From contig JAHEJN010000004.1 in the NCBI GenBank assembly GCA_024638845.1, positions 13,748 through 77,747 on the forward strand: a DNA stretch of 64,000 nt, given 5' to 3'. The position numbers and the translations under genes are program-made. Shown piece by piece: positions 9,977-57,350 of the stretch (position 1 is the stretch's first letter; each line of letters starts with the position of its first letter). This DNA is from Acidimicrobiales bacterium (lineage in GTDB: Bacteria > Actinomycetota > Acidimicrobiia > Acidimicrobiales > JAHEJN01). A model generated the notes under the pieces. It worked only from the letters and a program-made list of their open reading frames with translations, had not been told where the DNA came from and did not search any database.

Positions 9977-10181
9977 TATTTCGGTAAGTATGATTGCTTT
10001 TCACACTTCGATTCACTACGGTCGAGCACGTCGTGGGGCGAACGGCCGACGTTCGTTCGGGGAAGTGCGAATCTCGATCCGGCCGCCTCACGACATCGTC
10101 GCTGTCGCTTCATCCTCGCGCCAGCCAACCCGGCACCGAACACGCAGAAGAACATTGCAGTCGTGTTACGCTGCCGGCCGG

Positions 10182-25743: not shown

Positions 25744-25785
25744 GGCCCGGTCGGCGCAGCCAGAGCTGCTCGTACACTCGGACCC

Positions 25786-41419: not shown

Positions 41420-41857
41420 GTGCGTGCCCTGTTGCAGCGAGTGTCCGAGGCGTCGGTGAGCGTCGACGGAGAGACCGTGGGGGCCATCGGCGCCGGGTTG
41501 TGTGCCTTCGTCGGGGTCAGCCACGACGACGACATCGCCGCGGCGGAGAGACTGGCCGGCAAGATCTGGAACCTGCGGGTGTTCGACGACGCCGACGGCG
41601 TGATGAACCTGCCGGTCGGTGAGGCCGGCGGCGCCGTGCTGGTGATCAGCCAGTTCACGCTCTACGGCGACACCCGCAAGGGACGGCGGCCGTCGTACGT
41701 CTCCGCCGCGCGCCCCGAGCAGGCCGAACCTCTCGTCACGGCCGTCGTCGAGCGGCTGCGGGCCCTCGGAGCCACGGTGGCAACCGGTCGATTCCGGGCC
41801 GAGATGGCGGTGGCGTTGGTGAACGACGGTCCGGTGACCCTCAGCCTCGAGGTCTAG
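41420..41857 (+). CDS. dtd: D-aminoacyl-tRNA deacylase
   Basis: VRALLQRVSEASVSVDGETVGAIGAGLCAFVGV...VISQFTLYGDTRKGRRPSY. TACCGT hexamer lies 7 nt before the GTG. Confidence 0.9.
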   Translation: MRALLQRVSEASVSVDGETVGAIGAGLCAFVGVSHDDDIAAAERLAGKIWNLRVFDDADGVMNLPVGEAGGAVLVISQFTLYGDTRKGRRPSYVSAARPEQAEPLVTAVVERLRALGATVATGRFRAEMAVALVNDGPVTLSLEV

Positions 41858-43295
41858 GTCGTCGGTCGCGGCGGCGGAGGCCCTCGCCGATCGCAACCAG
41901 GACCACGGCGATACCGAGCATCGGCCATGGTCCGAAGGCGACCGCCCACGTCTTGCCCTCGCGGAGCTCGACGGTTCCCTGGACCACTGCTCGTTCCGAC
42001 ACCGCCGTGCGATCGAGCACGTCGCCATCGGGGGTGATGATGGCGGTGAAACCCGTCGGGGACGCCTGGAGCACGTAGCGATCGGTCTCGAGGGCCCGCA
42101 ACTGCGACGAGGCCACCTGCTGGGTCTGCACGATGGTGAGCCAGTACGACGAGCCGTTGGTGGGGTTTGCCAGTATCTGGGCGCCGTCATCTACGGCTGC
42201 GACCGCCCGGCGAGCGAAGAAGATCTCCCATGACACGGCGACGCCGAGGTCGCCCACGGGCGTCGTGAGCACGGCGTCGGTTCGCCCTTCGGCTGCGTCG
42301 CGGCGCGGGAGGTAGTCGGGGGCCAAGGGTTCGATGAACGAACGAAAGGGCACGAACTCGCCGAAGGGCACCCGAATCCGCTTCTCGTACCGATCGAGCG
42401 AGTCGCCCTCGGGCGAGATGGCGACCTGCGAGTTGACGAAGGCCGTGTCGGAGATGTCCTCGGTGACCCCGACGACCAGGACGGCGTCGAGTCGTCGCGC
42501 CAGGTCGGTGAGCACCGGCCACTTGGCGGTGTTCTCGAGCAGATCCGGCGTGTCGATGGCATTCTCGGGCCAGATCACCACATCGACGGGGAGCTCGACG
42601 AGCTCCGACGCCTCGAGATGGCGGTCGAAGACGTCCTCGGGATCGGTGTCGATGGCCCGGGTGCCCTGCTCGCCGCCTCCTTGCACCAGGGCAACATCGA
42701 GGGTGCCGACGACCTCGGCCCGCGGCGCCACGGCGGCCAGGGCGACGGCGAGAATGACCACGCCTGCGGCCAGGCCGGCCACCGCCGGCTGCCGTTGGGC
42801 CAGCCCGGAGAGACCCATGGCGACGGTCACGGTGAGGGCCACGAGCAGAAGTGGGCCGAAGACGCGCACGGTCGGAAGGAGTGGTCCGCCGACCTGGCTC
42901 ATCGCGAGCGTGGCGAGCGGCACGCCCCCGAAGGGCACCGACCATCGCACGAGCTCCCATACGACGACGACGGCAACGAGGGAGGGTCGCCGCCCGGGAC
43001 CGTGAGGAACCAGTGCGACGAGCCCGCCGAGCGTGGCCGCGATCAAGGGTCCGACCACCAGGTAGCCCGGAGGGGTGAGGGCCCACATCCAGAGAGTCGC
43101 CGGCATCAGCCACGCCAGGGCGAAGAGCGACGCTCGGCGGAAACGATGCCAACGGCTCGGCACGGCGATGAGGTGATCGAGGATGGCCAGCCCGACGAAG
43201 GCGCACGGCCACCATCCCCACGGCGGCATCGAGAACGCGACCAGCCCCCCGCCGGCCACGCACCGAGCAGCGACGGCGAGCCGTCGAGAGGTCAT
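41841..43295 (-). CDS. lnt: Apolipoprotein N-acyltransferase
   Basis: 484 aa: multi-TM N-terminal half plus a CN-hydrolase domain (VVIWPENAI...VGVTE...VSWEIFF). 17-bp convergent overlap with dtd. Confidence 0.8.
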   Translation of the reverse strand: MTSRRLAVAARCVAGGGLVAFSMPPWGWWPCAFVGLAILDHLIAVPSRWHRFRRASLFALAWLMPATLWMWALTPPGYLVVGPLIAATLGGLVALVPHGPGRRPSLVAVVVVWELVRWSVPFGGVPLATLAMSQVGGPLLPTVRVFGPLLLVALTVTVAMGLSGLAQRQPAVAGLAAGVVILAVALAAVAPRAEVVGTLDVALVQGGGEQGTRAIDTDPEDVFDRHLEASELVELPVDVVIWPENAIDTPDLLENTAKWPVLTDLARRLDAVLVVGVTEDISDTAFVNSQVAISPEGDSLDRYEKRIRVPFGEFVPFRSFIEPLAPDYLPRRDAAEGRTDAVLTTPVGDLGVAVSWEIFFARRAVAAVDDGAQILANPTNGSSYWLTIVQTQQVASSQLRALETDRYVLQASPTGFTAIITPDGDVLDRTAVSERAVVQGTVELREGKTWAVAFGPWPMLGIAVVLVAIGEGLRRRDRRPRPRG

Positions 43296-43325
43296 CGACT
43301 GCGCCTGGCCGGGGCGCGGTGGTCG

Positions 43326-43601
43326 TTACTCGGAGAGCTCGATCGTGAGCTTGCGGCCCAACAGACCGCCGGTGTCGACCGTGATGGCCGACGCCATGCC
43401 GGGAAGCTCCTTGGCCACGAGAATCCGCAGGTCATCGATGCGAACTCGCCGGTAGGGGGCCAGGTTCTTGTGCTTGACGTTGGTGTCGACCGACACCTCG
43501 GCGACCTTGCCTCAACCGGTGGGGCGAATGAAGTCGATGGCCATGGTGCCACCCCGGCTTCGCAGCACCTGGGCGGCTCTAGGGGTGATGTCGACGTCCA
43601 T
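43326..43601 (-). CDS. HesB/IscA-like small protein with an in-frame TGA (candidate selenocysteine) at codon 30
   Basis: Own translation: MDVDITPRAAQVLRSRGGTMAIDFIRPTG-[TGA]-GKVAEVSVDTNVKHKNLAPYRRVRIDDLRILVAKELPGMASAITVDTGGLLGRKLTIELSE. GGAG lies 8 nt before the ATG. Both halves are GC3-rich. RPTG(U)GK aligns with the IscA RTSGCSG Cys motif. Confidence 0.45.
43482..43497 (-). promoter_or_regulatory. SECIS-like hairpin 14 nt downstream of the in-frame UGA
   Basis: The mRNA reads UGA-N14-GGUGUC-GGUC-GACACC: a 6-bp stem with apical loop GGUC, which from memory is the same loop as the E. coli fdhF SECIS. Confidence 0.4.
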
Positions 43602-43679
43602 GGGGAGCACTCCGATTCGTGGCAGACGCAGTGAGAACCCGAGCGGTTCCATATGGATTCCACCACAGCGACCAGCATC

Positions 43680-45029
43680 TCAGACCATCGCGGCGATGCG
43701 ACGAGCGGCGATGTCCGCGCCGTGGATACAGGTGGGGATGCCGATGCCCGCTGTCGCGGCGCCGGCAACGGCGATTCGGGTATCGGCCAGCTCGGCGGTG
43801 ACGGCGGCGAGCCGATCGAGATGGCCCGGGCGGTATCGGGGAAAGGACTTCGGCCAGCGGGAGATGCGGACCTCCTCCGGCGAGCCCGTGATGTGCATCA
43901 TCTCTCGGAGATCGTCGACGACCGTCGTCCGGATGGTCTGGTCATCGGCCGCCACGATCGCGTCGTCGTCGGCTCGGCCGACCGCAGCCCGCACCACGAC
44001 CGAGCCCTCGGCCAGATGCGGCCACTTGACCGAGGTCCACGAGCATGCAGTGACGGTGTGGCCGGCGGCTGCGGGCACGAGGAACCCCGATCGATCCAGT
44101 GGCACGCCGATCGTGTCTGGGTCGAAGGCCACGGTGACGAAGGCAACCGACACGGGATCGAGCGCGAAGGCCGACGCCGCAGGTGATGCACCGAGGAGGC
44201 CGCCGGTGACGTGCGTCGGAGTGGCGATGATCACCGCGTCGAAGACCGAGGTGTCGTCAGGGCCGACGACCTCGACCCCCGAGCTCGCCACGGTCAGTCG
44301 TTCCACCGGCGAAGCGAATCGGATCCGCGGACCGAGACGGTGAGCCAGCGCGTCGGTCAGCTCCTGCATGCCGCCGCGCGGCGCAGCGAAGATCGGCGTC
44401 GCTGTCTCATGCGACGCGGCCGCCGCATCGGCCAGGGCCCGTGTGAAGCTGGGTGCTCGTGCGGCGTCGGCGAACTGGGGGGTCACGGTGGCCAGACTCA
44501 GTTGGTCGACCGGAGCCGCGTAGACACCGTGCAACAGCGGTTCGACGATGCGCTCGGTGAGCTCGTCGCCCAGTCGCGCGCGAAGCAGTGCGCCGAGTGA
44601 GTCGGCGGGATCGACGACCGGCGAGCGTGCCTCGGCGTCGGCCATGAGGGCGGCGACGGCGTCGTCGCCGACGAGCGGTGATCTCGCGAGCGCCGCTGGG
44701 TCGACCGGAACGCCCATCACGTGCGGGGTGGGCAGGTCGTGGATGGCGCCCGACGCGTAGATACCGGCCGGGAGCCCCGACGGGTGGACGAGCTGATCGG
44801 CGAGGCCGAGCTCGGCGCACAACTCGAGCGCCCACGGGACCCGGGTCAAGAAGGCGTCGGCGGCCTCGTCGATCGGTCGCCCGGCAAAGGGCGACGTCTT
44901 GATGTTGCCTCCGACGCGACCGGACGCCTCGTGGACCTCCACGTCGACGCTGGGGTCGAGGGTCATCAGGCGATGAGCGGCGGTCAAGCCGGCGATGCCG
45001 CCTCCGATCACGGCAACGCGGCTCGTCAC
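43680..45029 (-). CDS. hemY: Protoporphyrinogen/coproporphyrinogen III oxidase (HemY/CgoX)
   Basis: VTSRVAVIGGGIAGLTAAHRL (FAD GxGxxG)...C-terminal GAATAGIGIPTCI. The GTG overlaps the hemE stop (GTGA). Confidence 0.8.
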   Translation of the reverse strand: MTSRVAVIGGGIAGLTAAHRLMTLDPSVDVEVHEASGRVGGNIKTSPFAGRPIDEAADAFLTRVPWALELCAELGLADQLVHPSGLPAGIYASGAIHDLPTPHVMGVPVDPAALARSPLVGDDAVAALMADAEARSPVVDPADSLGALLRARLGDELTERIVEPLLHGVYAAPVDQLSLATVTPQFADAARAPSFTRALADAAAASHETATPIFAAPRGGMQELTDALAHRLGPRIRFASPVERLTVASSGVEVVGPDDTSVFDAVIIATPTHVTGGLLGASPAASAFALDPVSVAFVTVAFDPDTIGVPLDRSGFLVPAAAGHTVTACSWTSVKWPHLAEGSVVVRAAVGRADDDAIVAADDQTIRTTVVDDLREMMHITGSPEEVRISRWPKSFPRYRPGHLDRLAAVTAELADTRIAVAGAATAGIGIPTCIHGADIAARRIAAMV

Positions 45030-46084
45030 GATGCGGTCGGGCCGGGAGGCCAGGCATGAACGAGCTCGACCAAACGCTCGAGCACCTCCGGGTCGGAATC
45101 GGGCAGAACGCCGTGACCAAGGTTGAAGATGTGGCCTGGTCGTCCTGCGTTGCGGGTGAGGATGTCGGCTGCCTCGCCCTCGACCGCCTCCCAACCGGCG
45201 AGAACGACGGCCGGGTCGAGGTTGCCCTGCACCGCATACGTCGGGCCGAGTCGATCGCGGGCGACGTCGAGGGGCACCCGCCAGTCGACGCCCATCACAT
45301 CGGCGCCGGCCGCACCCATGAGCGTGAGCAGCTCACCGGTGCCGACACCGAAGTGGATTCGGGGCACGTCCAGGGACGCGACCGCCTCGAGGACCTTGGT
45401 CGACGCCGGCAGGACGTGGCGCTCGTACATCGCCGGGGTGAGGCTGCCGGCCCAGCTGTCGAAGAGCTGGATGGCTCGGGCCCCGCTCTCCACCTGCGAG
45501 GTCAACGAGGTGATGGCGAGATCGGCGAGGCGGTCGCACAGATCGGCCCAGAGCGCGGGATCGCCCAGCATCAAGGACTTGGTGCGGCCATGGTTCTTCG
45601 ACGGACCACCCTCGATGAGATAGCTGGCGACGGTGAAGGGAGCACCCGCGAAGCCGATCAGCGGCACTTCGAGCTCGGCCGCCAGGTTGCGCACGGTTTC
45701 GAGCACGTAGGGCGTGTCGGCCTCGGGTTCGAGATCTCGGAGCCGCCCCAGATCGTCGCGGCTCCGAAACGGTGTGGCGACAACCGGACCGATGCCCGGC
45801 TCGACGGTGACGCCGAAGCCGATGGCGTGCACGGGCGTGACGATGTCGGAGTAGAGAATGGCGGCGTCGACTCCGTAGCGACGGACCGGCTGGAGAGTGA
45901 TCTCCGTGGCCCGATCGGGGTCGGCGATGGCGTCGACGATCGATCCCTCGCCCCGGACCGCCTTGTACTCGGGTAGCGAGCGTCCGGCCTGACGCATGAA
46001 CCACACGGGAGTGGCGTCGGTGGGCTCCTGCCGACACGCCCGCAGGAAACGGCTGTCGTCGTGGGAGGGCCCAGGGGTGGTCAC
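45026..46084 (-). CDS. hemE: Uroporphyrinogen decarboxylase
   Basis: ...FLRACRQEPTDATPVWFMRQAGRSLPEY...ILYSDI...FNLGHGV. TACCGT hexamer lies 8 nt before the GTG. Confidence 0.9.
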   Translation of the reverse strand: MTTPGPSHDDSRFLRACRQEPTDATPVWFMRQAGRSLPEYKAVRGEGSIVDAIADPDRATEITLQPVRRYGVDAAILYSDIVTPVHAIGFGVTVEPGIGPVVATPFRSRDDLGRLRDLEPEADTPYVLETVRNLAAELEVPLIGFAGAPFTVASYLIEGGPSKNHGRTKSLMLGDPALWADLCDRLADLAITSLTSQVESGARAIQLFDSWAGSLTPAMYERHVLPASTKVLEAVASLDVPRIHFGVGTGELLTLMGAAGADVMGVDWRVPLDVARDRLGPTYAVQGNLDPAVVLAGWEAVEGEAADILTRNAGRPGHIFNLGHGVLPDSDPEVLERLVELVHAWPPGPTAS

Positions 46085-48328: not shown

Positions 48329-49414
48329 ATGAGCCGGCCCGTTACCGAGCCCTCGGCTTCCCGAGCCGCCGCCATCGAAGTGGTCGGCGCGTCGGTGGCC
48401 TACGACGCCGATTTGGTGCTCGATCAGATCGACCTCCGGGTGGATGCCGGCTCCATGGTGGCGCTGCTCGGTCCGAGCGGCTGTGGCAAGACCACGCTCC
48501 TGCGCGCCATCGCCGGCCTGGAACCCATCACCGCCGGTGCCATACAGGTGGGAGGCGAGGTCATGTCCGGAGCCGGCACCCACGTTGCCCCCGAACGGCG
48601 TCGCGTGGGCATGGTGTTCCAGGACTGGGCGCTGTTTCCGCACCTCACCGTGCGCAAGAACGTCGCCTATGGGCTGCATCGCATGCCGGGTGCCGGTGAA
48701 CGGGTCGACGAGGTGATGGCGATGGTCGGGCTCACCGGATTCGACGATCGTCTGCCCCACACGTTGTCGGGTGGTCAACAACAGCGGGTCGCCCTGGCGC
48801 GGGCCCTGGCCCCGAGGCCGTCGGTGCTCCTGCTCGACGAGCCCTTCTCCAATCTCGATACGTCGCTGCGGGTGGAGATCCGAACCGATGTGCATCGCCT
48901 GCTCTCCGACCTCGACGTCACGTCGGTCTTCGTCACCCACGATCAGGACGAGGCCTTCGTCCTGGGCGACGATGTGGCGGTGATGCAGTCCGGACACATC
49001 GTTCAGGTGGGTTCGCCGTCCCAGCTCTACGCCCAACCGTCGGACCCCTGGGTTGCGACCTTCGTCGGTGAGGCGAACCTGCTCACGGCGGCGGTGGCCG
49101 AGGGGTTGGCGGCCACGTCAGTGGGTTCGGTAGCGGTCGAGGTGGTGGGTGACTCGCCGGCAAACGGTCGTTTCGATGCCGAGGTGCTCATCCGTCCCGA
49201 AGACCTCGATGTGCAGCCCGGCGGCGTCGGCGAGGTGCGATTGATCGAGTACTACGGACACGACACGACCTATGAGATCGACATCGGCGGCGAGCTGGTT
49301 CGGGCCCGGCTGGCGTCGGCGCCCCGTTTCCAACGAGGCGATCAGGTCACGGTCCGCTACACGGGTTCCTCGACCGTGGCCTATCCCGAAGTCGGCCATC
49401 TTCCGGCGCAATGA
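48329..49414 (+). CDS. ABC transporter ATP-binding protein (Fe3+/polyamine importer type, with C-terminal TOBE-like domain)
   Basis: [39 protein letters not shown] hexamer lies 8 nt before the ATG. Confidence 0.85.
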   Translation: MSRPVTEPSASRAAAIEVVGASVAYDADLVLDQIDLRVDAGSMVALLGPSGCGKTTLLRAIAGLEPITAGAIQVGGEVMSGAGTHVAPERRRVGMVFQDWALFPHLTVRKNVAYGLHRMPGAGERVDEVMAMVGLTGFDDRLPHTLSGGQQQRVALARALAPRPSVLLLDEPFSNLDTSLRVEIRTDVHRLLSDLDVTSVFVTHDQDEAFVLGDDVAVMQSGHIVQVGSPSQLYAQPSDPWVATFVGEANLLTAAVAEGLAATSVGSVAVEVVGDSPANGRFDAEVLIRPEDLDVQPGGVGEVRLIEYYGHDTTYEIDIGGELVRARLASAPRFQRGDQVTVRYTGSSTVAYPEVGHLPAQ

Positions 49415-49480
49415 CGGCGAATCCGCGAAATGTTAGGCATGCTTGACGTTTTTTGAAAACGACCTCTACCCTTCGCCTTC

Positions 49481-50527
49481 ATGCATCGAACCTTCCCACG
49501 CTTCGTCGGGCTCGTCGTCTCCCTCGGTTTGGTTGCGGCGGCCTGCGGTTCCGACGGCTCCGAGAGTGACGCCACCGGCGACGGGTCCCTCGAAGGTGTG
49601 ACCATCACGGTGTACACGGGACGCGGCGAAGATCTCATCGGCCCGGTCTTCGACCTCTTCGAAGAACGCACCGGAGCGACCGTCGACGCCCGCTACGGCG
49701 GGTCGGCCGACCAGGCGCTGCTCATCGACACCGAGGGCGATCGGTCGCCGGCCGACGTGTTCATCTCCCAGAGCCCTGGCGCCGTCGGATTCCTCGACCA
49801 ACAAGGGCGTCTCGCCCCGCTGTCGGCCGACACCCTCGACCTGGTCGACGCGGCGTACCAGGGCAGCGACGGCAATTGGGTCGGCATCACCGCACGCGTT
49901 CGGGTGCTCGTGTACAACCCCGACCTCGTCGACGAGTCGGAGCTGCCGTCGTCGGTTCTCGACCTCACCGACTCCGAGTATGCGGGTCGGGTGGGCGTGG
50001 CCCCCGGAAACGGATCGTTCCAGGACTTCGTCACCGCCATGCGCGCCGAGCTCGGTGACGACGCCACCGGAGCGTGGCTGGAGGGGCTGGCGGCCAACGA
50101 CTCGCCGAACTACACCAACAACGGCGCCATCCTCGATGCCGTGGCCCGCGGTGAGGTCGACATGGGCCTGGTCAACCACTACTACCTCGCCGAGGCCATC
50201 GAGGAGGACCCCGACATCTCGGCGGTCAACTACTTCTTCCCGGCCGGCGACCTCGGATCGTTGCTCATCGTCAGCGCGGCGGGTGTGATCGACTCGTCCG
50301 ACGATCCGGCGGCGGCCGAGGCGCTGGTGCAATTCCTCCTGTCCGACGAGGCCCAGCGGCTCTCCGCATCGGCCGAGAAGGAGTATCCGCTGGTCGCAGG
50401 TGTGGCCGTTCCCGAGGGACTGGCCCCCCTGGCCGACGTCGTTGCCGTGACCGTCGACCTCGACGTTCTCGCCGAGGGCCTGCTGGGCACAGCCGACCTG
50501 ATCGACGCGAGTGGCATCCAGCGCTGA
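49481..50527 (+). CDS. Iron(III)-type ABC transporter substrate-binding lipoprotein
   Basis: Lipobox LVAAACGSD; ...TITVYTGRGEDLIGPVFDLFEE...VGVAPGNGSFQDFV...VNHYYL. Confidence 0.75.
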   Translation: MHRTFPRFVGLVVSLGLVAAACGSDGSESDATGDGSLEGVTITVYTGRGEDLIGPVFDLFEERTGATVDARYGGSADQALLIDTEGDRSPADVFISQSPGAVGFLDQQGRLAPLSADTLDLVDAAYQGSDGNWVGITARVRVLVYNPDLVDESELPSSVLDLTDSEYAGRVGVAPGNGSFQDFVTAMRAELGDDATGAWLEGLAANDSPNYTNNGAILDAVARGEVDMGLVNHYYLAEAIEEDPDISAVNYFFPAGDLGSLLIVSAAGVIDSSDDPAAAEALVQFLLSDEAQRLSASAEKEYPLVAGVAVPEGLAPLADVVAVTVDLDVLAEGLLGTADLIDASGIQR

Positions 50528-52172
50528 CCCGTCGCTCGTCGTGCAGCTCCCTGCGGCACGGCGGCGTAGCGGCCCGCGCGCGGTGGCCCCGACCACCTCG
50601 CACCGATGGGCGTCGGCGTCGGTTCTGGTCATCGGTGCGCTGTTCGTGGCCCCGTTTGTGTATGTCGTCATCGAGAACGTGCGGCTCGGTGCCGACTTCG
50701 TCGACATCTTCGCCAGCGCCGACACCTGGCAGCCCCTGCGCCGCTCGCTGCAGCTGGCGGTGGCCGTCTCCCTGTCGGCTGCGATCGTGGGCACGGGCCT
50801 CGCCTGGCTGGTCGCACGCACTGACCTCCCGGCCAAGCGACTGTTCGCGGTGCTGTTGCCGTTGCCGCTCGTCTTTCCCTCTTTCGTCGGGGCCACTGCG
50901 CTGATCTCGGGCTTCGCCAAGGGCGGTCTGCTCGATCGGGTGGCCGCACCGCTCGGTATCGAGCTGCCGGTCCTGGCCGGCTTCCGTGCGGCGTGGCTGG
51001 TGTTGACCGTGTTCACCTATCCGTACGTGTACCTCACGGTTCTGGCGCGCCTTCGGCGGTTGCCGTCGTCGGTGGAGGAGAGTGCTCGACTGCTCGGGCG
51101 TCGTCCATGGCAGGTCTTCGTCACGGTCGTGGTCCCTCAGGCCCGCTCGGCGATCTCCGCCGGGGCGCTGTTGGTGTTCTTGTACACGATCAGCGACTTC
51201 GGTGCCGTCCAGCTGTTGCGCTACGACACGCTCACCAGGGTGATCTTCTCGAACAGCCTGGCCGACCGTCCCACATCGATGGCCCTCAGCTTGCTGCTCG
51301 GCACGTTGGCCCTGCTCGTCGTCGCCGCCGAGCGAGGAATCATGCGAAGCGACGTACCCGACGGCTCCAACCGACGCGGGATGGCCCTCATCACGCCGCT
51401 CGGTCGCTTGCGTGCTCCGGTGACTGTCGGGCTGGTCGTGTTCATCGGCTTCGTCATCGTGGGACCGGTGGCGTCGCTCGCCAATTGGACGATCCGTGGC
51501 GTCGCCAGTACCCGAACCTCCGGGTCGCTCGCGGTGAGCGGCGACAGCCTCGCCCCCGCCATTGTGAACACCGTGATCGTGAGTCTGGCGGCGGCCGTTG
51601 TCACCGTTGCGGTCGTCTTGCCCATTGCCTACGCAACCGTGCGGCGCCGTAGTCGTTCCGCCGATGTGGCCAATGCGTTCGTCATCGGCGGCTTTGCCCT
51701 TCCCGGCCTGGTCACCGCCCTGGCGCTGGTGTTCTGGGTGCTCAGCAACGACGTGTTGGCCGGCCTCTACCAGACCTTCCCGCTGCTCATCCTCGCCTAT
51801 GTGGTGCACTTCGGGGCCCAGGGGAGTCGGGCCTCACAGGTGGCCGTGGGTGCGGTGTCGCAGCGTCTCGACGATGCAGGCCGAATGCTCGGGGCCGGGA
51901 GGCTGCGCCGGTTCGTCAGCATCGAGCTGCCGCTCATGTTGCCGGGGCTGGGAGCGGCCGCCGGACTGGTGCTGCTGTCGACCATGAAGGAGCTCCCGGC
52001 CACGCTGTTCCTCGCTCCCACCGGCTTTCGTACGCTCGCCACCGAGATCTGGTTCTCGATGGAGACGGTCAGCTACGCCCAGGCCGGCCTCGAGTCGATG
52101 GTGTTGCTCGCCGTGTCGGCGGTGCTCACCTGGCTCCTGGTGATCCGCTCGGCCGATCGCCTCGACGGATGA
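50511..52172 (+). CDS. Iron ABC transporter permease (duplicated two-domain FbpB type)
   Basis: 553 aa with two permease repeats, each carrying an EAA-like loop (VEESARLLGRRPWQVF; LDDAGRMLGAGRLRRF). Confidence 0.8.
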   Translation: MASSADPSLVVQLPAARRRSGPRAVAPTTSHRWASASVLVIGALFVAPFVYVVIENVRLGADFVDIFASADTWQPLRRSLQLAVAVSLSAAIVGTGLAWLVARTDLPAKRLFAVLLPLPLVFPSFVGATALISGFAKGGLLDRVAAPLGIELPVLAGFRAAWLVLTVFTYPYVYLTVLARLRRLPSSVEESARLLGRRPWQVFVTVVVPQARSAISAGALLVFLYTISDFGAVQLLRYDTLTRVIFSNSLADRPTSMALSLLLGTLALLVVAAERGIMRSDVPDGSNRRGMALITPLGRLRAPVTVGLVVFIGFVIVGPVASLANWTIRGVASTRTSGSLAVSGDSLAPAIVNTVIVSLAAAVVTVAVVLPIAYATVRRRSRSADVANAFVIGGFALPGLVTALALVFWVLSNDVLAGLYQTFPLLILAYVVHFGAQGSRASQVAVGAVSQRLDDAGRMLGAGRLRRFVSIELPLMLPGLGAAAGLVLLSTMKELPATLFLAPTGFRTLATEIWFSMETVSYAQAGLESMVLLAVSAVLTWLLVIRSADRLDG

Positions 52173-52193
52173 CCTCTGCGACTGGTCTTCCAC

Positions 52194-52862
52194 TCAGTCG
52201 GTGGTGACCAGGATCCGCTCGCTGGCGAAGGCGCCGACGCCGATGTGATTGCCGTCGATCTCGACGGTGGTCGTTCCGTCGGGTGAGGTGGCGGTGAGCC
52301 GGCCGGCCCGACCCGGCACGACATGGGACGCCTCGAGGAAGTCGAGCAGGCCCTCGGTGAACTCGAGCTCCTCGGGAATGCGAGAGACCACGAAGGTCGT
52401 TCCGGTCGGGACCTCCGACAACGACACCGTCTCCGGTTCACGGTAGCCGCTGCCGGGAATGGGGTTGCCGTGCGGGCACGTCGTCGGGTCACCGAGCTCG
52501 CGAACGAGGGCCGCCTCGACCGCCGGTGAGATCACGTGCTCCCACTTCCCGGCCTCGAGATGGGCATCGGCCCATGACAGACCGAGGATGTCGGTGAGGA
52601 AACGCTCGGCCAGGCGGTGCCGGCGCACCAGTGCCTCGGCCAGTTCGAGCCCGCTGGTGGTGAGCCTTACCTGACGATCGACCTCGACGAGACCCTCGGC
52701 GGTCATGCGGCGGATCATCTCGCTCACCGCCGGACGGGAGACCCGGAGGCGCTCGGCGATTCGGGCCTGGATGACATCGACGTCGTCCTCGGCCAGCTCG
52801 AAGATGGTCTCGCAGTACTCCTCGAAGGCCGGGTGGTACTCGGGCGAGGTGTAACCATCCAT
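52194..52862 (-). CDS. DtxR/IdeR/MntR-family metal-dependent repressor
   Basis: EEYCETIFELAEDDVDVIQARIAERLRVSRPAVSEMIRRMTAEGLV...RHRLAERFL...EHVISP...CPHGNPIP, plus an SH3-like C-terminal domain. Confidence 0.85.
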   Translation of the reverse strand: MDGYTSPEYHPAFEEYCETIFELAEDDVDVIQARIAERLRVSRPAVSEMIRRMTAEGLVEVDRQVRLTTSGLELAEALVRRHRLAERFLTDILGLSWADAHLEAGKWEHVISPAVEAALVRELGDPTTCPHGNPIPGSGYREPETVSLSEVPTGTTFVVSRIPEELEFTEGLLDFLEASHVVPGRAGRLTATSPDGTTTVEIDGNHIGVGAFASERILVTTD

Positions 52863-52868
52863 GCCCGC

Positions 52869-52878
52869 ACTCTACCGT
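52869..52878. promoter_or_regulatory. Back-to-back -10 hexamers for divergent leaderless dtxR-family gene and lhr
   Basis: ACTCTACCGT: plus-strand TACCGT is 8 nt before the lhr ATG (52887). Minus-strand TAGAGT is 6 nt before the repressor ATG (52862). The intergenic region is only 24 bp. Confidence 0.45.
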
Positions 52879-52886
52879 TGAGCGGC

Positions 52887-55800
52887 ATGGTGCTCGACCG
52901 CTTCTCGCCCGTCGTGCGGGAGTGGTTCACCACCACATTTCCCGAGCCCACGGCCGCCCAGACCAAGGGATGGCCGGCCATCGCCGATGGTGATCACACC
53001 CTCGTCCTGGCGCCTACGGGTTCGGGCAAGACCCTGGCGGCGTTCCTGTGGGCCATCGATCGGCTGGTGACCCGGCCTCCCGATCCCGACACACGCACGA
53101 CCAAGGTCCTCTACCTGTCACCGCTTCGCGCCCTGGCCGTCGACGTCGAGAAGAACCTGCGGTCGCCGTTGCGCGGGATCGCACTGGCGGCCGAACGTCG
53201 GGGCGAGCCCGTACGCGAGCCCACGGTGGGCCTCCGATCGGGGGATACGCCGACCGACGAGCGCCGGCGGCTGGTGCGGCATCCGCCCGACATCCTCATC
53301 ACCACCCCCGAGTCCTTGTTCTTGATGCTCACCTCCAAGGCGCGCGAGACGCTGCGCGGCGTCGAGCACGTGATCATCGACGAGATCCACGCACTTGCGC
53401 CGACCAAACGGGGCACCCACATGGCGCTGTCGCTCGAACGGCTGGAAGAGCTGTGCGACCAGCCCCCGCAACGCATCGGCCTCTCGGCGACCCAACGACC
53501 ACTCGACGAGATCGCCCGGTTCCTCGGTGGTCACGACGGTGGGCGACACCGAGCAGTCACCATCATCGATGCGGGGGTCAGCAAGACCCTCGACGTCGAG
53601 ATCGTCGTGCCGGTCGACGACATGGGCGCCCTCGGCGAGGGCGGTGGCGGCGACGAGGGTGGCCCCGAGCGGCGCAGCATCTGGCCCGCCATCCATCCCC
53701 GGCTGCTCGAGCTGATCGAAGGGCACGCGTCGACGCTGATCTTCGTGAATGCCCGCCGGTTGGCCGAGCGCCTGGCCGCCCGCCTGAACGAGCTGGCCTT
53801 CGAACAGGCGCGTGAGCAGGAAGAGTCCTTCGAACCGGTCGACGACGGTGCCGACCCACCGGCCGCGGTCCCTGAGGTCGTTCGGGCCCACCACGGCTCG
53901 CTGAGTCGTGACCGGCGACTCCAGATCGAGGACGACCTCAAGCGGGGTGAGCTGAAGGCCATCGTGTGCACCAGCTCGCTCGAGCTCGGCATCGACATGG
54001 GTGCGGTCGATCTGGTGATCCAGGTCGAGTCCCCAGGAGCGGTCAGCCGGGGTCTCCAGCGAATCGGTCGCGCCGGTCATCAGGTCGGCCAGGCCAGCCG
54101 GGGCCGGATCTTCCCCAAGCATCGCATCGACCTCGTCGAGGCTGCGGTGGTGCTCGATGGCATGCAGCACGGCCGGATCGAGTCGACTCGGTACCCGCGC
54201 AACCCTCTCGACGTCCTGTCTCAGCACATCGTTGCCATGTGCGCCATGGACGACTGGCCCGTCGACCGCCTCGTCTCGCTGGTTCGACGGGCTGCGCCCT
54301 ACGTCGAGCTCAGCGACGACGTGTTCCGGAACGTACTCGATCTGCTGGCCGGTCGGTATCCGAGCGAGGAGTTCTCCGAGCTGCGACCACGAGTCGTGTG
54401 GGACAGGGTGGCCGATATCGTCGCCGGTCGGCCGGGCGCCCAACGGCTGGCGGTGATATCCGGCGGAACCATTCCCGATCGCGGCCTGTTCGGCGTCTTC
54501 CTGCCCGACGGGACGCGAGTCGGCGAGCTCGACGAGGAGATGGTGTACGAGAGCCGACCGGGCGAGACCTTCCTGCTTGGTGCCAGTACCTGGCGCATCC
54601 AGGAGATCACCTTCGAACGGGTCATCGTCACGCCGGCACCCGGTGAGCCCGGACGCATGCCGTTCTGGCACGGCGACGGGCCGGGTCGTCCCATCGAGCT
54701 CGGCCAGGCGATGGGTGCCTTCATACGACGGGTCCGCGACCAGCGGGACGACGCCTGGCTGGTCGACGAGGTCGGGCTGGACCGGCGCGCGGCAGCCAAC
54801 CTGCGGTCGTTCATCGCCGAGCAGGCCGAGGCGACCGGGGTCGTGCCCGACGACCGCACCATCGTCGTCGAGCGCTTTCGCGACGAGATCGGCGACTGGC
54901 GGGTCTGTGTTCTGTCACCGTTCGGCGCCCAGATCCATGCGCCGTGGGCGATGGCCCTGCAGGCGCGACTCGGGGAACGGTGGGGCAGTGAGCCCGAGAT
55001 GATCTGGAGCGACGACGGCATCGTGTTGCGCCTGCCCGAGGCGATCGACCAGGTACCCATCGAGGACCTGCTGCTCGATCCGGCCGAGATCGATCAGCTG
55101 GTGATCGCCCATCTCCCCAACACGGCGATGTTCGCGGCGCGGTTCCGCGAGTGCGCGGCCCGGGCGCTGCTCCTGCCCCGTCGTCGACCCGATCAGCGCA
55201 CGCCTCTGTGGCAACAGCGCCAGCGGGCGGCGGATCTCTTGCGGGTGGCGGCCGACTATGCCGACTTCCCGGTCCTGCTCGAAACCACGCGCGAGTGCTG
55301 CAACGACGTGTTCGATCTGCCTGCACTCCGCACGCTGCTTGCCGATCTCCAGAGCCGCAAGGTGCGAGCCGTCGCGGTCGACACCGATCGGGCGTCGCCG
55401 TTCGCTCAGTCGCTGCTGTTCTCGTGGATCGCGACGTACATGTACGAGGGTGATGCGCCGCTGGCCGAACGGAGGGCGGCGGCCCTCGCCCTCGATCGTG
55501 ACCTCCTCCGGGAGCTCCTCGGATCCGAGGAGCTGCGCGAGCTGCTCGACGGCGACGTTCTGGTCGAGCTCGAGCTCGAGCTCCAGTTCCTCACCGAGGA
55601 GCGTCGCGTGCACGATGCCGAAGGCGTGGCCGACCTGCTGCGGCGCATCGGGCCGCTGTCACTGCTCGATTTGAGCACCCGCGTCGACGGTGACGCGACG
55701 GCGATGTCGACCTCGCTGATCGACGCCCGTCGGGTGATCGAGGTCGGAATCGCCGGCGAGACGCGTCTCGCCGTGGCCGAGGATGCGGGGCGCCTCCGCG

Positions 55801-57350
55801 ATGCGCTGGGCGTTGCGCTGCCGGTCGGTCTGCCGGCGGCGTTCACCGATCCGGTCGCCACGCCGCTCCGTGATCTCGTGCTGCGGTACGCGCGCAGTCA
55901 TGGTCCCTTCGTCATCGACTCGCTGGCCGAGTGGCTGGGCGGTGAGGTGCCGAATCTGCGGGTCACCGTCGAGCAGCTGACTACCGACGGCTTGCTCGTG
56001 CACGGCGAGTTTCGACCCAACGGGGTCGAACGGGAGTGGTGCGATCCTGAGGTGCTTCGGCGACTGCGCCGACGATCGTTGGCCGCGCTCCGACATGAGG
56101 TCGAACCGGTCGATGTAGAAGCCCTTGCCCGGTTCCTGCCGGTCTGGCAGGGGCTCGGCGGCACGCGGCGAGGCGTCGATGCGCTGGTGGAAACGATCGG
56201 TGTGCTCCAGGGAGCCCCGATTGTCGCATCGACGCTGGAGAACGACGTGCTCGCGAGCCGCATCGACGGATACGAGTCGTCGATGCTCGACCAGCTCGCT
56301 TCGATGGGTGACGTCGTGTGGCTGGGAGGTGGGTCGATCGGTGCCCGCGACGGCCGGATCCGGCTGGTCTTTCGCGACCAGGTCAGGCTTTTCGTCGACG
56401 CGAGCGGCGACGAAGGGCCCGACGACCCACTGCACGATGCCATTCGGTCGCACCTTGTGGAGCGGGGCGCATCGTTCTGGACCGAGATCCAGGCGGCAGC
56501 ATCGGCGGCGGGCCTCTCCTATCAGTCCGAGGCAGTGGTTGCGGCGCTGTGGGATCTCGTCTGGGCCGGTGAGGTCACCAACGACACGCTCGCCCCGGTG
56601 CGGGCCCTCGCCATGCGCCGCGGTCGCGGGGGCAAGACTCGTGGGGTCCGAGCCCGACGACCTGGTCGTCTCACCAGCAGCGGGCCGCCGAGCGCAGTGG
56701 GCCGGTGGTCACTCGTGTCGACGCTGGTAGGAGCACCGGCCACACCGACCGAGATGGCCCATGCCCGGGCCGTCCAGTTGCTCGAGCGCTACGGCGTGCT
56801 CACCAGGGAGATGGCCCTCGGCGAGGGGGCAACGGGTGGATTTGCTGGCGTCTATCCCATCCTCCGGGCCCTCGAAGAGCAGGGGAAGGTGCGGCGGGGG
56901 TACTTCGTGGCGGGCCTCGGCGCAGCCCAGTTCGCCCTTCCGGGTGCCGTCGATCGCCTCCGCGATCACCGCGAGAGCGCCGATCCGGCGCCGGCCCTGG
57001 TACTCGCGGCCACCGACCCGGCCCAACCCTTCGGCGCTGCGGTTCCCTGGCCCGAAACCGAGCATCGGCCCAGCCGCTCGGCGAGGGCCTATGTCGTGAT
57101 CGACGACGGTCGTGCCGTCGCCTTCCTCGAGCGCGGCGGCCGCAGCGTCGTTGTCCTCGATGGCGACGCCGACCCGGCCCGGTGGATTGGGGGATTGCGC
57201 GATCTGGTGGCTTCGGGTCGGGTGTCCAAGCTCGAGATCGCCAAGATCGACGGCGAGGCTGCTGGCGCCTCGCCGCTGGTTCCTGCATTCGAGTCGGTGG
57301 GGTTCTCCCGGGGCTATCGAGGACTCCTGCTGCGTCACGGCGGGCTCTGA
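52887..57350 (+). CDS. lhr: Lhr-family ATP-dependent DNA/RNA helicase (long form)
   Basis: MVLDRFSPVVREWFTTTFPEPTAAQTKGWPAIADGDHTLVLAPTGSGKTLAAF, DEIH box, HHGSLS, about 1487 aa. Confidence 0.9.
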   Translation: MVLDRFSPVVREWFTTTFPEPTAAQTKGWPAIADGDHTLVLAPTGSGKTLAAFLWAIDRLVTRPPDPDTRTTKVLYLSPLRALAVDVEKNLRSPLRGIALAAERRGEPVREPTVGLRSGDTPTDERRRLVRHPPDILITTPESLFLMLTSKARETLRGVEHVIIDEIHALAPTKRGTHMALSLERLEELCDQPPQRIGLSATQRPLDEIARFLGGHDGGRHRAVTIIDAGVSKTLDVEIVVPVDDMGALGEGGGGDEGGPERRSIWPAIHPRLLELIEGHASTLIFVNARRLAERLAARLNELAFEQAREQEESFEPVDDGADPPAAVPEVVRAHHGSLSRDRRLQIEDDLKRGELKAIVCTSSLELGIDMGAVDLVIQVESPGAVSRGLQRIGRAGHQVGQASRGRIFPKHRIDLVEAAVVLDGMQHGRIESTRYPRNPLDVLSQHIVAMCAMDDWPVDRLVSLVRRAAPYVELSDDVFRNVLDLLAGRYPSEEFSELRPRVVWDRVADIVAGRPGAQRLAVISGGTIPDRGLFGVFLPDGTRVGELDEEMVYESRPGETFLLGASTWRIQEITFERVIVTPAPGEPGRMPFWHGDGPGRPIELGQAMGAFIRRVRDQRDDAWLVDEVGLDRRAAANLRSFIAEQAEATGVVPDDRTIVVERFRDEIGDWRVCVLSPFGAQIHAPWAMALQARLGERWGSEPEMIWSDDGIVLRLPEAIDQVPIEDLLLDPAEIDQLVIAHLPNTAMFAARFRECAARALLLPRRRPDQRTPLWQQRQRAADLLRVAADYADFPVLLETTRECCNDVFDLPALRTLLADLQSRKVRAVAVDTDRASPFAQSLLFSWIATYMYEGDAPLAERRAAALALDRDLLRELLGSEELRELLDGDVLVELELELQFLTEERRVHDAEGVADLLRRIGPLSLLDLSTRVDGDATAMSTSLIDARRVIEVGIAGETRLAVAEDAGRLRDALGVALPVGLPAAFTDPVATPLRDLVLRYARSHGPFVIDSLAEWLGGEVPNLRVTVEQLTTDGLLVHGEFRPNGVEREWCDPEVLRRLRRRSLAALRHEVEPVDVEALARFLPVWQGLGGTRRGVDALVETIGVLQGAPIVASTLENDVLASRIDGYESSMLDQLASMGDVVWLGGGSIGARDGRIRLVFRDQVRLFVDASGDEGPDDPLHDAIRSHLVERGASFWTEIQAAASAAGLSYQSEAVVAALWDLVWAGEVTNDTLAPVRALAMRRGRGGKTRGVRARRPGRLTSSGPPSAVGRWSLVSTLVGAPATPTEMAHARAVQLLERYGVLTREMALGEGATGGFAGVYPILRALEEQGKVRRGYFVAGLGAAQFALPGAVDRLRDHRESADPAPALVLAATDPAQPFGAAVPWPETEHRPSRSARAYVVIDDGRAVAFLERGGRSVVVLDGDADPARWIGGLRDLVASGRVSKLEIAKIDGEAAGASPLVPAFESVGFSRGYRGLLLRHGGL

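What the first reader, a model, noticed from the sequence alone, without database searches (positions are those of the whole stretch)
43326..43680. Candidate selenoprotein: HesB/IscA-like ORF downstream of hemY with one in-frame UGA and a SECIS-like hairpin
Between hemY and lnt, on the same strand, a 92-codon frame has an SD (GGAG, 8 nt upstream) and strong third-position G/C bias on both sides of a single TGA at 43512..43514. The flanking peptide ...AIDFIRPTG[UGA]GKVAEVSV... puts the UGA where IscA/HesB proteins carry their first conserved Cys (RTSGCSG). Fourteen nt after the UGA the mRNA forms GGUGUC-GGUC-GACACC. From memory, its GGUC loop matches the apical loop of the E. coli fdhF SECIS, with similar spacing. 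HesB-like selenoproteins are a described family. Finding one in an actinobacterium, inserted into the hemE-hemY block where hemQ usually sits, would be notable. fdhD elsewhere in the window is weak support, because formate dehydrogenases are often Sec enzymes. The ORF track misses this gene and shows only an out-of-frame ORF.
Basis: partly seen in the sequence, partly recalled or inferred. Interest (0 to 1): 0.78.

Follow-up and report, generated by a model that had tools for sequence, protein, structure and literature searches.

The report
Unannotated small selenoprotein, HesB/IscA-like
Between hemY and lnt lies one real 91-codon gene whose internal UGA almost certainly encodes selenocysteine; it belongs to a widespread marine actinobacterial family that public annotation always cuts in half as a "hypothetical protein".

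Summary
On the minus strand, ATG 43601 to TAA 43326 is one reading frame of 91 sense codons. It has an in-frame TGA at 43514..43512. Fourteen nt further on comes the hairpin GGUGUC-GGUC-GACACC.

About 120 related loci were recovered. Most are Acidimicrobiia/Ilumatobacter; some are Dehalococcoidia, and one is the cultured Ilumatobacter coccineus YM16-304. Every locus that covers the site keeps TGA there, never TGC, TGT, TAA or TAG. The peptide is conserved on both sides of it. The hairpin is nucleotide-identical in all but three loci, and synonymous variation is suppressed only inside it. The hairpin meets all four criteria of the published bacterial SECIS model. Published tables list SelA, SelB and SelD, and 10-15 selenoproteins, for Ilumatobacter.

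The NCBIfam model NF041239 (CC/Se motif selenoprotein) matches across both halves, but below its cutoff. A profile comparison with IscA/SufA also spans both halves (hhalign 76%, P 2e-5) and puts Sec on IscA Cys35.

No Cys-containing form was found, even among 1.84 billion representative proteins.

Verdict: a genuine, unannotated selenoprotein family. It is a new variant of a known kind. The biochemical function is only inferred. The window organism's own Sec machinery could not be checked.

The parts
43326..43601 (-). Complete coding sequence of the selenoprotein. It has 91 sense codons (Sec at codon 30) and the stop TAA at 43328..43326.
   Evidence: Translation. Homologues start at the equivalent ATG and are conserved on both sides of the UGA. 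The NF041239 HMM aligns residues 1-88 as one domain.
43610..43613 (-). Shine-Dalgarno-like GGAG, 8 nt upstream of the ATG.
   Evidence: Sequence. A GGAG/AGGAG lies at the same place in L001-L003.
43512..43514 (-). In-frame UGA, read as selenocysteine (codon 30).
   Evidence: TGA in 42/42 and 80/80 related loci; never TGC, TGT, TAA or TAG. Replacing the residue at this position by Ala costs 5.0 bits against NF041239. It aligns on IscA Cys35.
43482..43497 (-). bSECIS hairpin: 6-bp stem GGUGUC/GACACC with apical loop GGUC (43491..43488). The loop starts 20 nt after the UGA.
   Evidence: -9.6 kcal/mol. It is the RNAalifold consensus, with all 6 pairs kept in 41/42 sequences. It is identical in 79/80 metagenome loci. 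Synonymous variation is suppressed. It meets the bSECIS model criteria quoted.
43326..43496 (-). The 56-aa C-terminal half. This is the only part that public gene calls report (P0001, from a GTG inside the hairpin).
43680..45194 (-). Upstream neighbour hemY (protoporphyrinogen/coproporphyrinogen oxidase). This is context only.
   Evidence: PF01593 Amino_oxidase on the identical gene in L048; ORF. The true start is probably downstream of 45194.
41841..43295 (-). Downstream neighbour lnt (apolipoprotein N-acyltransferase), starting 30 nt after the stop. This is context only.
   Evidence: PF20154 + PF00795 on the identical gene in L048.

Best explanation
**What it is.** 43601..43326 (minus strand) is a single gene for a 91-residue selenoprotein.

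**Translation (inferred from the anatomy).** When the ribosome reaches UGA at codon 30, the hairpin GGUGUC-GGUC-GACACC sits 14 nt downstream. It acts as a bacterial SECIS. SelB-GTP-Sec-tRNA(Sec) binds its GGUC loop and delivers selenocysteine, so translation does not stop. The product is MDVDITPRAAQVLRSRGGTMAIDFIRPTG-U-GKVAEVSVDT...IELSE.

**Fold (my estimate about 0.65).** The protein is a very divergent relative of the A-type carrier (HesB/IscA/SufA) fold. Sec occupies the position of the first cluster-ligand cysteine, IscA Cys35.

**C-terminal tail.** In most family members a flexible Gly/Asp/Ala-rich C-terminal tail ends in CC-x, C-x-x-C, C-x-[IL]-stop or HxHGPxCxH. This lies where IscA carries its C-terminal Cys-Gly-Cys. 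The window's own clade has lost this tail and has no cysteine at all.

**Function (inferred, about 0.4).** Sec, together with the tail Cys/His or with a second protomer, binds a metal or Fe-S centre. Alternatively it carries a persulfide/selenide-type adduct for transfer, as A-type carriers do.

**What is shown.** The single gene, the conserved UGA, the conserved SECIS-type hairpin and the family relationships.

**What is inferred.** Actual Sec insertion in this organism, the fold and the chemistry.
For: 1. The in-frame TGA is conserved in every related locus that covers the site. This holds for 37 species-representative genomes (one further locus starts downstream of the site), 80 metagenome contigs, I. 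coccineus AP012057.1 and the divergent L041/L043/L047. Terminal stops of the same genes vary: TGA 27, TAG 12, TAA 3.
2. The peptide is conserved on both sides, with synonymous variation in the N-terminal half (G18, T19 and P27 codons vary).
3. The hairpin is identical down to 37-47% protein identity. One change is G-C to G-U (L016). One sequence loses only the outer pair (L025). RNAalifold picks this hairpin. Synonymous entropy is 0.08 against 0.91 bit, p = 1e-4.
4. The bSECIS model is fully met: loop 3-9 nt, stem 4-16 bp, G in the first two loop positions, 16-37 nt from the UGA, MFE <= -7.5 kcal/mol. Here the values are 4 nt, 6 bp, GG, 20 nt and -9.6 kcal/mol.
5. One-domain models span the UGA. 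NF041239 matches residues 1-88 to profile positions 1-89/91 in 27/27 members. hhalign against IscA/SufA aligns 1-91 with 1-94 at probability 76%, P 2.3e-5. Reversed or shuffled controls give at most 3.6%.
6. The U column is a Cys-preferring column of NF041239 (C to A costs 5 bits).
7. The genus that carries the gene has SelD, SelA and SelB and 10-15 known selenoproteins (Peng et al. 2016, PMC5029168, Tables S1/S2). Another order of the same class has selA/B/C/D (bioRxiv 10.64898/2026.04.03.716425).
Against: - No tRNA-Sec, selA, selB or selD lies in the window or in 1.19 Mb of related flanks. The window organism's own Sec machinery is therefore unverified.
- The hairpin never varies, so there is no compensatory covariation. 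Its invariance overlaps an invariant peptide (EVSVDT).
- Folding of the wider 76-nt region is not better than shuffles (z = +0.92). No Rfam SECIS model matches.
- Fold assignment rests on one profile-profile comparison against a four-sequence IscA/SufA profile. Pfam PF01521, TIGR01911 and a PDB sequence-profile search give nothing. No structure prediction could be run.
- No Cys homologue is available to show that the position is a functional thiol/selenol site.
- Gene neighbourhoods are not conserved, so they give no functional hint.
Confidence: 0.86

Rival explanations
1. The same selenoprotein has a different chemistry. It would be a selenol/thiol oxidoreductase in which Sec30 forms a selenenylsulfide with the Cys of the flexible C-terminal tail, as in the C-terminal arm of thioredoxin reductase. 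It would not be a metal or Fe-S carrier.
For: - Most prokaryotic selenoproteins are redox proteins (review PMC13188914).
- Most members carry a C-terminal Cys two or three residues from the end on a Gly/Asp-rich tail.
- The nearest curated family, NF041239, is described with a CxxU redox-type motif.
Against: - The window's clade has no Cys at all, so no intramolecular partner.
- Divergent members have His-rich tails (HxHGPxCxH), which look like metal ligands.
- The Sec and tail-Cys positions parallel the three cluster ligands of IscA.
- No CxxU or UxxC motif is present; position -3 is Pro.
Confidence: 0.3
2. The UGA is recoded, but not to selenocysteine. The hairpin would stimulate stop-codon readthrough, for example near-cognate Trp or Cys insertion, independently of SelB.
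For: Sec machinery was not found in the held sequence of the window's lineage. Downstream hairpins can stimulate readthrough in other systems (general knowledge).
Against: - The hairpin fits the SelB-type bSECIS model in loop sequence, size and spacing.
- The carrier genus has SelA/B/D.
- The position is a Cys/Sec column in NF041239 and aligns on a ligand Cys of IscA.
- If Cys or Trp were acceptable, some of about 120 loci should encode it directly. None does.
Confidence: 0.05
3. These are two separate small genes: a 29-aa peptide ending at a true TGA stop, and a 56-70-aa protein starting at the GTG/ATG inside the hairpin. This is how all public annotations call them.
For: Gene callers predict exactly this. 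TGA is the commonest stop in this genome, 41/47.
Against: - The two parts are always in the same frame and exactly 5 codons apart, with no indel in about 120 loci.
- The stop is never TAG or TAA although terminal stops are.
- The 5 'intergenic' codons are conserved as amino acids (G-K-[VI]-A-E).
- One-domain profiles (NF041239, IscA/SufA) run colinearly through the junction.
- No SD precedes the internal GTG.
Confidence: 0.04
4. It is a pseudogene: a HesB-like gene inactivated by a nonsense mutation.
For: A single in-frame stop in an otherwise intact frame is what a recent nonsense mutation looks like in one genome.
Against: The same stop is present in every homologue across Acidimicrobiia and Dehalococcoidia, down to 37% identity. 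Purifying selection is visible on both halves.
Confidence: 0.01

Closest known systems
NCBIfam NF041239, 'CC/Se motif family (seleno)protein' (the hypothetical selenoprotein first predicted in Moorella thermoacetica)
   Same: - It has the same size: the profile is 91 positions and the alignment is full-length and colinear (1-88 against 1-89).
- All 27 tested members hit it, and it is the only consistent hit.
- The Sec position falls on a Cys-preferring column.
- It is also a small selenoprotein of unknown function.
   Different: - Scores are 20-30 bits against a curated cutoff of 40, so NCBI's pipeline does not name these genes.
- The family motif is given as CxxU. Here position -3 is Pro and the motif is R-P-[TV]-G-U-G-K.
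- NF041239 has Cys forms. None was found here.
HesB-like selenoprotein (TIGR01911, motif UxGP) and A-type Fe-S carriers IscA/SufA/ErpA (Pfam PF01521)
   Same: - The size is about 90-110 aa.
- The N-terminus is M-x-I-x-[IL]-T-x-x-A.
- Sec aligns on the first ligand Cys (IscA Cys35; hhalign 76%, P 2.3e-5).
- Most members have a C-terminal Cys pair about 10-15 residues after the last strand, where IscA has CGC.
- HesB-like proteins already include an experimentally verified selenoprotein family.
   Different: - TIGR01911 does not hit. PF01521 hits 1/27 members at E 0.16. The PDB sequence-profile search finds nothing.
- The motif is UGK[VI], not UxGP or CSG.
- The window protein lacks the C-terminal cysteines altogether.
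E. coli fdhF-type bacterial SECIS / bSECISearch consensus model
   Same: It is a hairpin immediately downstream of the UGA inside the coding sequence. The small apical loop begins with GG and then U. The loop is 20 nt from the UGA, and the energy is -9.6 kcal/mol. All four model criteria are met. From my own recollection, the fdhF apical loop also contains GGUC with G23/U24 contacting SelB. This was not checked here.
   Different: No bulged U is present in the conserved stem. The stem has only 6 bp. There is no conserved lower stem including the UGA. No Rfam SECIS model matches.

Membership tests
Bacterial selenoprotein gene (UGA + bSECIS) | In-frame UGA with coding conservation on both sides, conserved among homologues. 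| tested here: met
   TGA in 42/42 and 80/80 loci. Both halves are conserved, with synonymous variation.
Bacterial selenoprotein gene (UGA + bSECIS) | bSECIS consensus: apical loop 3-9 nt, upper stem 4-16 bp, G in the first two loop positions, 16-37 nt between UGA and loop, MFE <= -7.5 kcal/mol (PMC13188914, Fig. 2). | tested here: met
   Loop GGUC (4 nt), stem 6 bp, GG, 20 nt, -9.6 kcal/mol. It is conserved in 41/42 and 79/80 sequences.
Bacterial selenoprotein gene (UGA + bSECIS) | The genome encodes selA, selB, selC (tRNA-Sec) and selD. | not testable with these tools
   None is found in the 64-kb window or in 1.19 Mb of related flanks. Literature lists SelD/SelA/SelB for I. coccineus and I. 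nonamiensis, which carry or are congeneric with carriers of the gene.
Bacterial selenoprotein gene (UGA + bSECIS) | Cys-containing homologues align Cys with the UGA (the usual Sec/Cys-pair criterion). | tested here: not met
   No close Cys form exists in about 120 loci. All real hits among 1.84e9 representative proteins begin just after the UGA. Only distant profiles (NF041239, IscA) place a Cys there.
Bacterial selenoprotein gene (UGA + bSECIS) | Selenium is actually incorporated (75Se labelling or mass spectrometry). | not testable with these tools
   An experiment is needed. I. coccineus YM16-304 is cultured.
NF041239 CC/Se motif family (seleno)protein | Score at or above the curated cutoff (40 bits). 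| tested here: not met
   25.2 bits for the window protein. The best E-value among 27 members is 1.9e-7, below cutoff.
NF041239 CC/Se motif family (seleno)protein | CxxU / CC-type motif at the Sec site. | tested here: not met
   The sequence is R-P-T-G-U-G-K, with no Cys within 3 residues. Introducing Cys at -3 or +1 raises the score by 2.2 and 3.7 bits, so the model expects Cys there.
HesB-like selenoprotein (TIGR01911) | Match to TIGR01911 and the UxGP motif. | tested here: not met
   No TIGR01911 hit at E <= 1-10 for 27 members. The motif is U-G-K-[VI].
A-type carrier / HesB-IscA domain (PF01521) | Match to Pfam PF01521 at the gathering threshold. | tested here: not met
   0 hits for the window protein; 1/27 members at E 0.16.
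A-type carrier / HesB-IscA domain (PF01521) | Domain-wide colinear similarity, with the first ligand Cys aligned. | tested here: met
   hhalign gives probability 76%, P 2.3e-5, 86 columns, U30 on Cys35. Reversed and shuffled controls give at most 3.6%. A thinner alignment gave 14%, P 0.0019.
A-type carrier / HesB-IscA domain (PF01521) | C-terminal Cys-x-Cys ligand pair. | tested here: inconclusive
   Most members end in CC-x, CxxC, Cx[IL] or HxHGPxCxH. The window protein and its closest relatives have no Cys.
A-type carrier / HesB-IscA domain (PF01521) | IscA-like three-dimensional fold. | not testable with these tools

The most novel reading that the evidence does not exclude
This is an undescribed selenoprotein family that is obligately selenocysteine-dependent.
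- It is a HesB/IscA-like small protein in which Sec replaces the first cluster-ligand Cys.
- No Cys-containing orthologue exists anywhere in public data.
- Its SECIS hairpin is frozen to the nucleotide across Actinomycetota and Chloroflexota.
- It is abundant in marine Acidimicrobiia.
- It has been overlooked because Sec/Cys-pair searches cannot see it and gene callers split it.

It may use a selenolate ligand for a metal, Fe-S or selenium-trafficking role that sulfur cannot fill.
Probability: 0.5. Interest if true: 0.65.

Novelty: new variant of a known kind. Interest (0 to 1): 0.58.

Why it matters
**Annotation.** The finding adds a real, widespread selenoprotein family. It has at least 410 clusters at 90% identity and about 48 clusters at 50%. 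Every public record annotates it as a truncated 56-73-aa hypothetical protein, including the complete genome of the cultured Ilumatobacter coccineus.

**Method.** The case shows a blind spot of Sec/Cys-pair-based selenoprotein discovery, because no Cys form exists for this family.

**Biology.** A Sec-only HesB/IscA-like protein would be a handle on what selenium does at an A-type-carrier ligand site. That question is still open even for the known HesB-like selenoproteins.

**Testability.** It can be tested directly in I. coccineus by 75Se labelling or mass spectrometry.

**Perspective.** New bacterial selenoprotein families are found regularly; 119 are listed in a 2026 review. The result is useful rather than revolutionary.

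Tried and rejected
- **Rfam.** At gathering threshold on the whole window it finds only two tRNAs. At E <= 10 on 43380..43620 it finds only a spurious mir-138 match on the other strand. No SECIS model hits, which is expected for bSECIS.
- **Sec machinery.** ARAGORN found no tRNA-Sec, and motif scans found no SelA (GDKLLGGPQ), SelD (GxGCxxK) or SelB (GHVDHGK), in the window plus 130 loci (1.19 Mb).
- **Other selenoprotein genes.** A scan of the window for other in-frame TGAs gave only two ordinary same-frame gene junctions (9506, 21970). A scan for other TGA + GGUC-loop hairpins in the loci gave one likely chance hit.
- **Pfam and PDB.** Pfam on the U-to-C protein gave nothing. A PDB sequence-profile search gave 0 hits.
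- **Alternative hairpin.** An 8-bp hairpin with loop GGUG and a bulged U is the minimum-energy fold of the window sequence in a 42-nt context. I rejected it because it is fully formable in only 23/42 homologues and collapses in divergent ones.
- **Lower stem.** I considered a possible lower stem, UUGA/UCAA. I dropped it because codon 42 is not conserved.
- **Upstream start.** The upstream in-frame ATG at 43652 (the 46-aa call) was rejected as the start, because conservation begins at 43601.
- **Genomic context.** It is not conserved between clades, so it gives no functional clue.
- **Literature.** I found no description of this family. The 2026 review table, the deep-Sep paper, the GOS paper and Peng 2016 list none with this motif. 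I could not find out whether Peng et al. counted it among the 15 I. coccineus selenoproteins.
Full report
**1. The observation**

Reading the minus strand of 43200..43800 and translating 43652..43326 gives
MEPLGFSLRLPRIGVLP-MDVDITPRAAQVLRSRGGTMAIDFIRPTG*GKVAEVSVDTNVKHKNLAPYRRVRIDDLRILVAKELPGMASAITVDTGGLLGRKLTIELSE*.

Exact coordinates:
- ATG at 43601
- GGAG at 43613..43610, 8 nt upstream
- TGA at 43514..43512 (codon 30)
- hairpin GGTGTC-GGTC-GACACC at 43497..43482, starting 14 nt after the TGA
- stop TAA at 43328..43326

The mechanical ORF list shows only the two halves (46 aa and 56 aa) and an out-of-frame 158-aa ORF.

**2. Is it more than chance? Related sequences**

*First protein search.* A search with the U-to-C protein returned only four proteins, all C-terminal halves of 56-66 aa. 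Their contigs (L001-L003) carry the missing N-terminal half in the same frame, behind the same TGA, followed by the same hairpin.

*Genome scan.* A scan of one genome per species (GTDB) gave 38 loci.
- Almost all are Acidimicrobiia/Ilumatobacteraceae MAGs.
- L004 is 97% identical to the window.
- One locus is a Dehalococcoidia MAG (L041).
- Every locus that covers the site has the in-frame stop at the same codon.

*Metagenome scan.* It added 80 loci. All 80 have TGA, and 79/80 have the identical 16-nt hairpin.

*Cultured carrier.* Ilumatobacter coccineus YM16-304, with a complete genome (AP012057.1), carries the gene. Its ATG is at L042:9896 and its TGA at 9984..9986.

*Stop codons.* Across the window plus 41 loci the internal stop is TGA 42/42. 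The terminal stop of the same genes is TGA 27, TAG 12, TAA 3. TGA is the commonest stop in this 68% G+C window, at 41 of 47 likely genes. That weakens the argument a little but does not cancel it.

*Coding signal.* The N-terminal half shows amino-acid conservation with synonymous variation. The codons for G18, T19, P27 and A34 each use three synonymous codons. It is therefore translated.

**3. The hairpin**

- Codons 35-40 (GAG GTG TCG GTC GAC ACC) have almost no synonymous variation. Mean codon entropy is 0.08 bit, against 0.91 bit for 24 other amino-acid-conserved codons (Mann-Whitney one-sided p = 1e-4).
- The hairpin is nucleotide-identical in loci whose proteins are only 37-47% identical to the window protein (L041, L043, L047).
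- The few variants are one G-C to G-U change (L016) and one simultaneous loss of the outer pair (L025, plus one metagenome contig).
- RNAalifold on 42 distinct sequences returns exactly this stem-loop, and 41/42 keep all six pairs.
- A competing 8-bp hairpin is the minimum-energy fold of the window sequence in a 42-nt context. It is fully formable in only 23/42 sequences and is lost in divergent members.
- The hairpin alone folds at -9.6 kcal/mol.
- The published bacterial SECIS consensus is quoted in the 2026 review PMC13188914, Fig. 2. It requires a 3-9-nt loop, a 4-16-bp stem, a G in the first two loop positions, 16-37 nt between the UGA and the loop, and MFE <= -7.5 kcal/mol. Here the values are 4 nt (GGUC), 6 bp, GG, 20 nt and -9.6 kcal/mol, so all criteria are met.
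- Because the stem never varies there is no compensatory covariation. The support is conservation at synonymous sites.
- Rfam has no matching model.

**4. One gene, not two**

- The two halves are always in frame and exactly five codons apart.
- Those five codons are conserved as G-K-[VI]-A-E.
- Single-domain profiles run through the junction:
  - NCBIfam NF041239 (CC/Se motif family (seleno)protein) aligns residues 1-88 to profile positions 1-89 of 91 in all 27 members tested. Its best E-value is 1.9e-7, and it is the only consistent hit.
  - An IscA/SufA profile aligns 1-91 with 1-94.

This excludes the annotated two-ORF picture and a pseudogene.

**5. Selenocysteine machinery**

Neither the window nor 1.19 Mb of related flanks contains tRNA-Sec or recognisable selA, selB or selD. 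The window organism's own machinery could not be checked.

The literature fills part of the gap.
- Peng et al. 2016 (PMC5029168) list I. coccineus and I. nonamiensis as SelD+, SelA+ and SelB+ in Table S1. Table S2 gives them 15 and 10 known selenoproteins.
- A 2026 preprint reports selA/B/C/D in all complete Actinomarina genomes, another order of Acidimicrobiia.

A selenoprotein in this lineage is therefore plausible and not in itself surprising.

**6. What the protein is**

*Library searches.*
- Pfam finds nothing for the window protein. PF01521 (Fe-S_biosyn, the HesB/IscA domain) appears for 1/27 members at E 0.16.
- TIGR01911, the described HesB-like selenoprotein model, does not hit.
- A PDB sequence-profile search finds nothing.

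*Relation to NF041239.* The match is consistent but below the curated cutoff (25.2 against 40 bits). I scored point mutants of the window protein against this model.

| Change | Effect on score |
|---|---|
| Cys to Ala at the U position | -5.0 bits |
| Cys placed at +1 | +3.7 bits |
| Cys placed at -3 | +2.2 bits |

The U therefore falls on a Cys/Sec-preferring column. However, the CxxU/CC motif that defines that family is absent. Here the site is R-P-[TV]-G-U-G-K.

*Relation to IscA/SufA.* I took IscA, SufA, AQ_1857 and HI1723 sequences from PDB alignments and built a small profile.
- Against the 27-member family alignment, hhalign gave 14% probability and P 0.0019.
- Against a broader 84-sequence alignment that includes the divergent members, it gave 76% probability, P 2.3e-5, score 32.9 and 86 aligned columns. 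U30 aligned on IscA Cys35.
- Controls were far lower. The reversed template gave 0.4%. Forty column shuffles gave at most 0.8%. Forty block shuffles gave at most 3.6%.

The protein is nevertheless not a member of the curated HesB families.

*C-terminal tail.* Most members carry a 10-20-residue Gly/Asp/Ala-rich C-terminal tail. It ends in CC-[ITLV], C-x-V-C or C-x-[IL]-stop. In divergent members it ends in HxHGPxCxH. This matches the position of IscA's C-terminal Cys-Gly-Cys ligands.

The window's clade (window, L002, L004, L007, L027) has lost the tail. The window protein contains no cysteine at all, so Sec is its only chalcogen side chain.

**7. No cysteine form**

- The profile search of 5.8 billion proteins gave 410 hits. 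The best 120 are all 66-73 aa C-terminal halves.
- An exhaustive HMMER search of 1.84 billion representatives used the C-terminal-half profile. It gave 50 hits at E <= 1e-3. Apart from two roughly 2,300-2,400-aa proteins, every hit begins at or within three residues of the [MV]SVDT that follows the UGA.
- The metagenome scan used one pattern written for the Cys version and one neutral pattern. It found only TGA.

[quoted passage not shown] This may explain why the family has no model and is always annotated as a truncated hypothetical protein. That includes I. coccineus (P0083).

**8. Context**

- In the window's clade the order is UvrD-like helicase / hemE - hemY - X - lnt / dtd / GT4.
- No promoter-like or terminator-like site lies around the gene. 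Co-transcription with hemE-hemY-lnt is therefore plausible but only inferred.
- In Ilumatobacter the gene lies between RNase E/G and rplU-rpmA.
- In L043 it follows amtB-glnB-glnA and a nitroreductase. In L047 it is near a phosphate transporter.
- There is no conserved neighbourhood, so the heme link is incidental.
- hemQ (PF06778) is present at 25786..26487, directly after fdhD at 24949..25743.

**9. Mechanism**

- *Shown:* a single conserved gene with a conserved UGA and a conserved SECIS-type hairpin.
- *Inferred, about 0.86-0.9:* SelB-dependent Sec insertion at codon 30.
- *Inferred, about 0.65:* an A-type-carrier-like fold with Sec at the first ligand position.
- *Inferred, about 0.4:* Sec, with the tail Cys/His or a second protomer, ligates a metal or Fe-S centre, or carries a transferable S/Se adduct.
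- *Main functional rival, about 0.3:* a selenenylsulfide redox couple between Sec and the tail Cys.

**10. Novelty and verdict**

The kind of thing, a bacterial selenoprotein with an in-frame bSECIS, is well known. HesB-like selenoproteins are a described family. This particular family differs in several ways.
- No curated model captures it.
- It is absent from the 119-family table of the 2026 review.
- It lacks the defining motifs of its nearest relatives.
- It has no Cys forms.
- It is mis-annotated everywhere.

I rate it a new variant of a known kind, with interest 0.58. The main open points are the Sec machinery in the window's own genome, direct proof of selenium incorporation, the three-dimensional fold and the chemistry.

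Noticed in passing
window 24949..26487 (+): fdhD (PF02634, E 6e-57) is followed 43 nt later by hemQ/ChdC (Chlorite dismutase family PF06778, E 6e-46). The coproheme decarboxylase gene is thus detached from hemE-hemY and sits next to fdhD. No formate dehydrogenase catalytic subunit was noticed in the window.
   Followed up: partly
L009-L038, L051-L130 (C-termini of the family genes): Most family members end in a Gly/Asp/Ala-rich tail with Cys two or three residues from the C-terminus (CCI, CAI, CEI, CxVC). Divergent members end in HxHGPxCxH. The window clade has no tail and no Cys. The 'Cxx-stop' ending resembles, with Cys in place of Sec, the 'UXX-star' selenoprotein endings listed in PMC13188914.
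   Followed up: partly
window 43515..43517 and 43509..43511 (-); all loci: The codon before the UGA is GGT in 41 of 42 sequences, despite strong G/C third-position bias. The codon after it is almost always GGC. The immediate context GGU-UGA-GGC is conserved at the nucleotide level, beyond what the Gly residues require.
   Followed up: no
L015, L018, L040: Three contigs labelled Gammaproteobacteria or Candidatus Azotimanducaceae MAGs carry family genes nearly identical to those of Ilumatobacter. They are probably mis-binned Ilumatobacter contigs rather than gammaproteobacterial carriers.
   Followed up: no
P0127, P0131, P0156 (representative-library hits): Three family hits match only over their first 25-39 residues and then diverge into unrelated sequence. 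They are probably frameshifted copies or assembly errors.
   Followed up: no
window 43482..43505 (-): In the window sequence, an alternative 8-bp hairpin (loop GGUG, bulged U) competes with the conserved 6-bp GGUC hairpin. It is the minimum-energy fold in a 42-nt context. It is not conserved in divergent homologues.
   Followed up: yes
window 48329..52862 and 52617..57350: Next to the heme genes lie an ABC importer (ATPase, solute-binding protein, permease), a DtxR/IdeR-type iron-dependent repressor (52194..52862, -) and a large Lhr-type helicase (1577 aa). The same order is seen in L048.
   Followed up: partly
bioRxiv 10.64898/2026.04.03.716425 (Actinomarina genomes): The preprint reports an uncharacterised 78-aa predicted selenoprotein as the most abundant family in Actinomarina, which belongs to the same class.
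   Followed up: no
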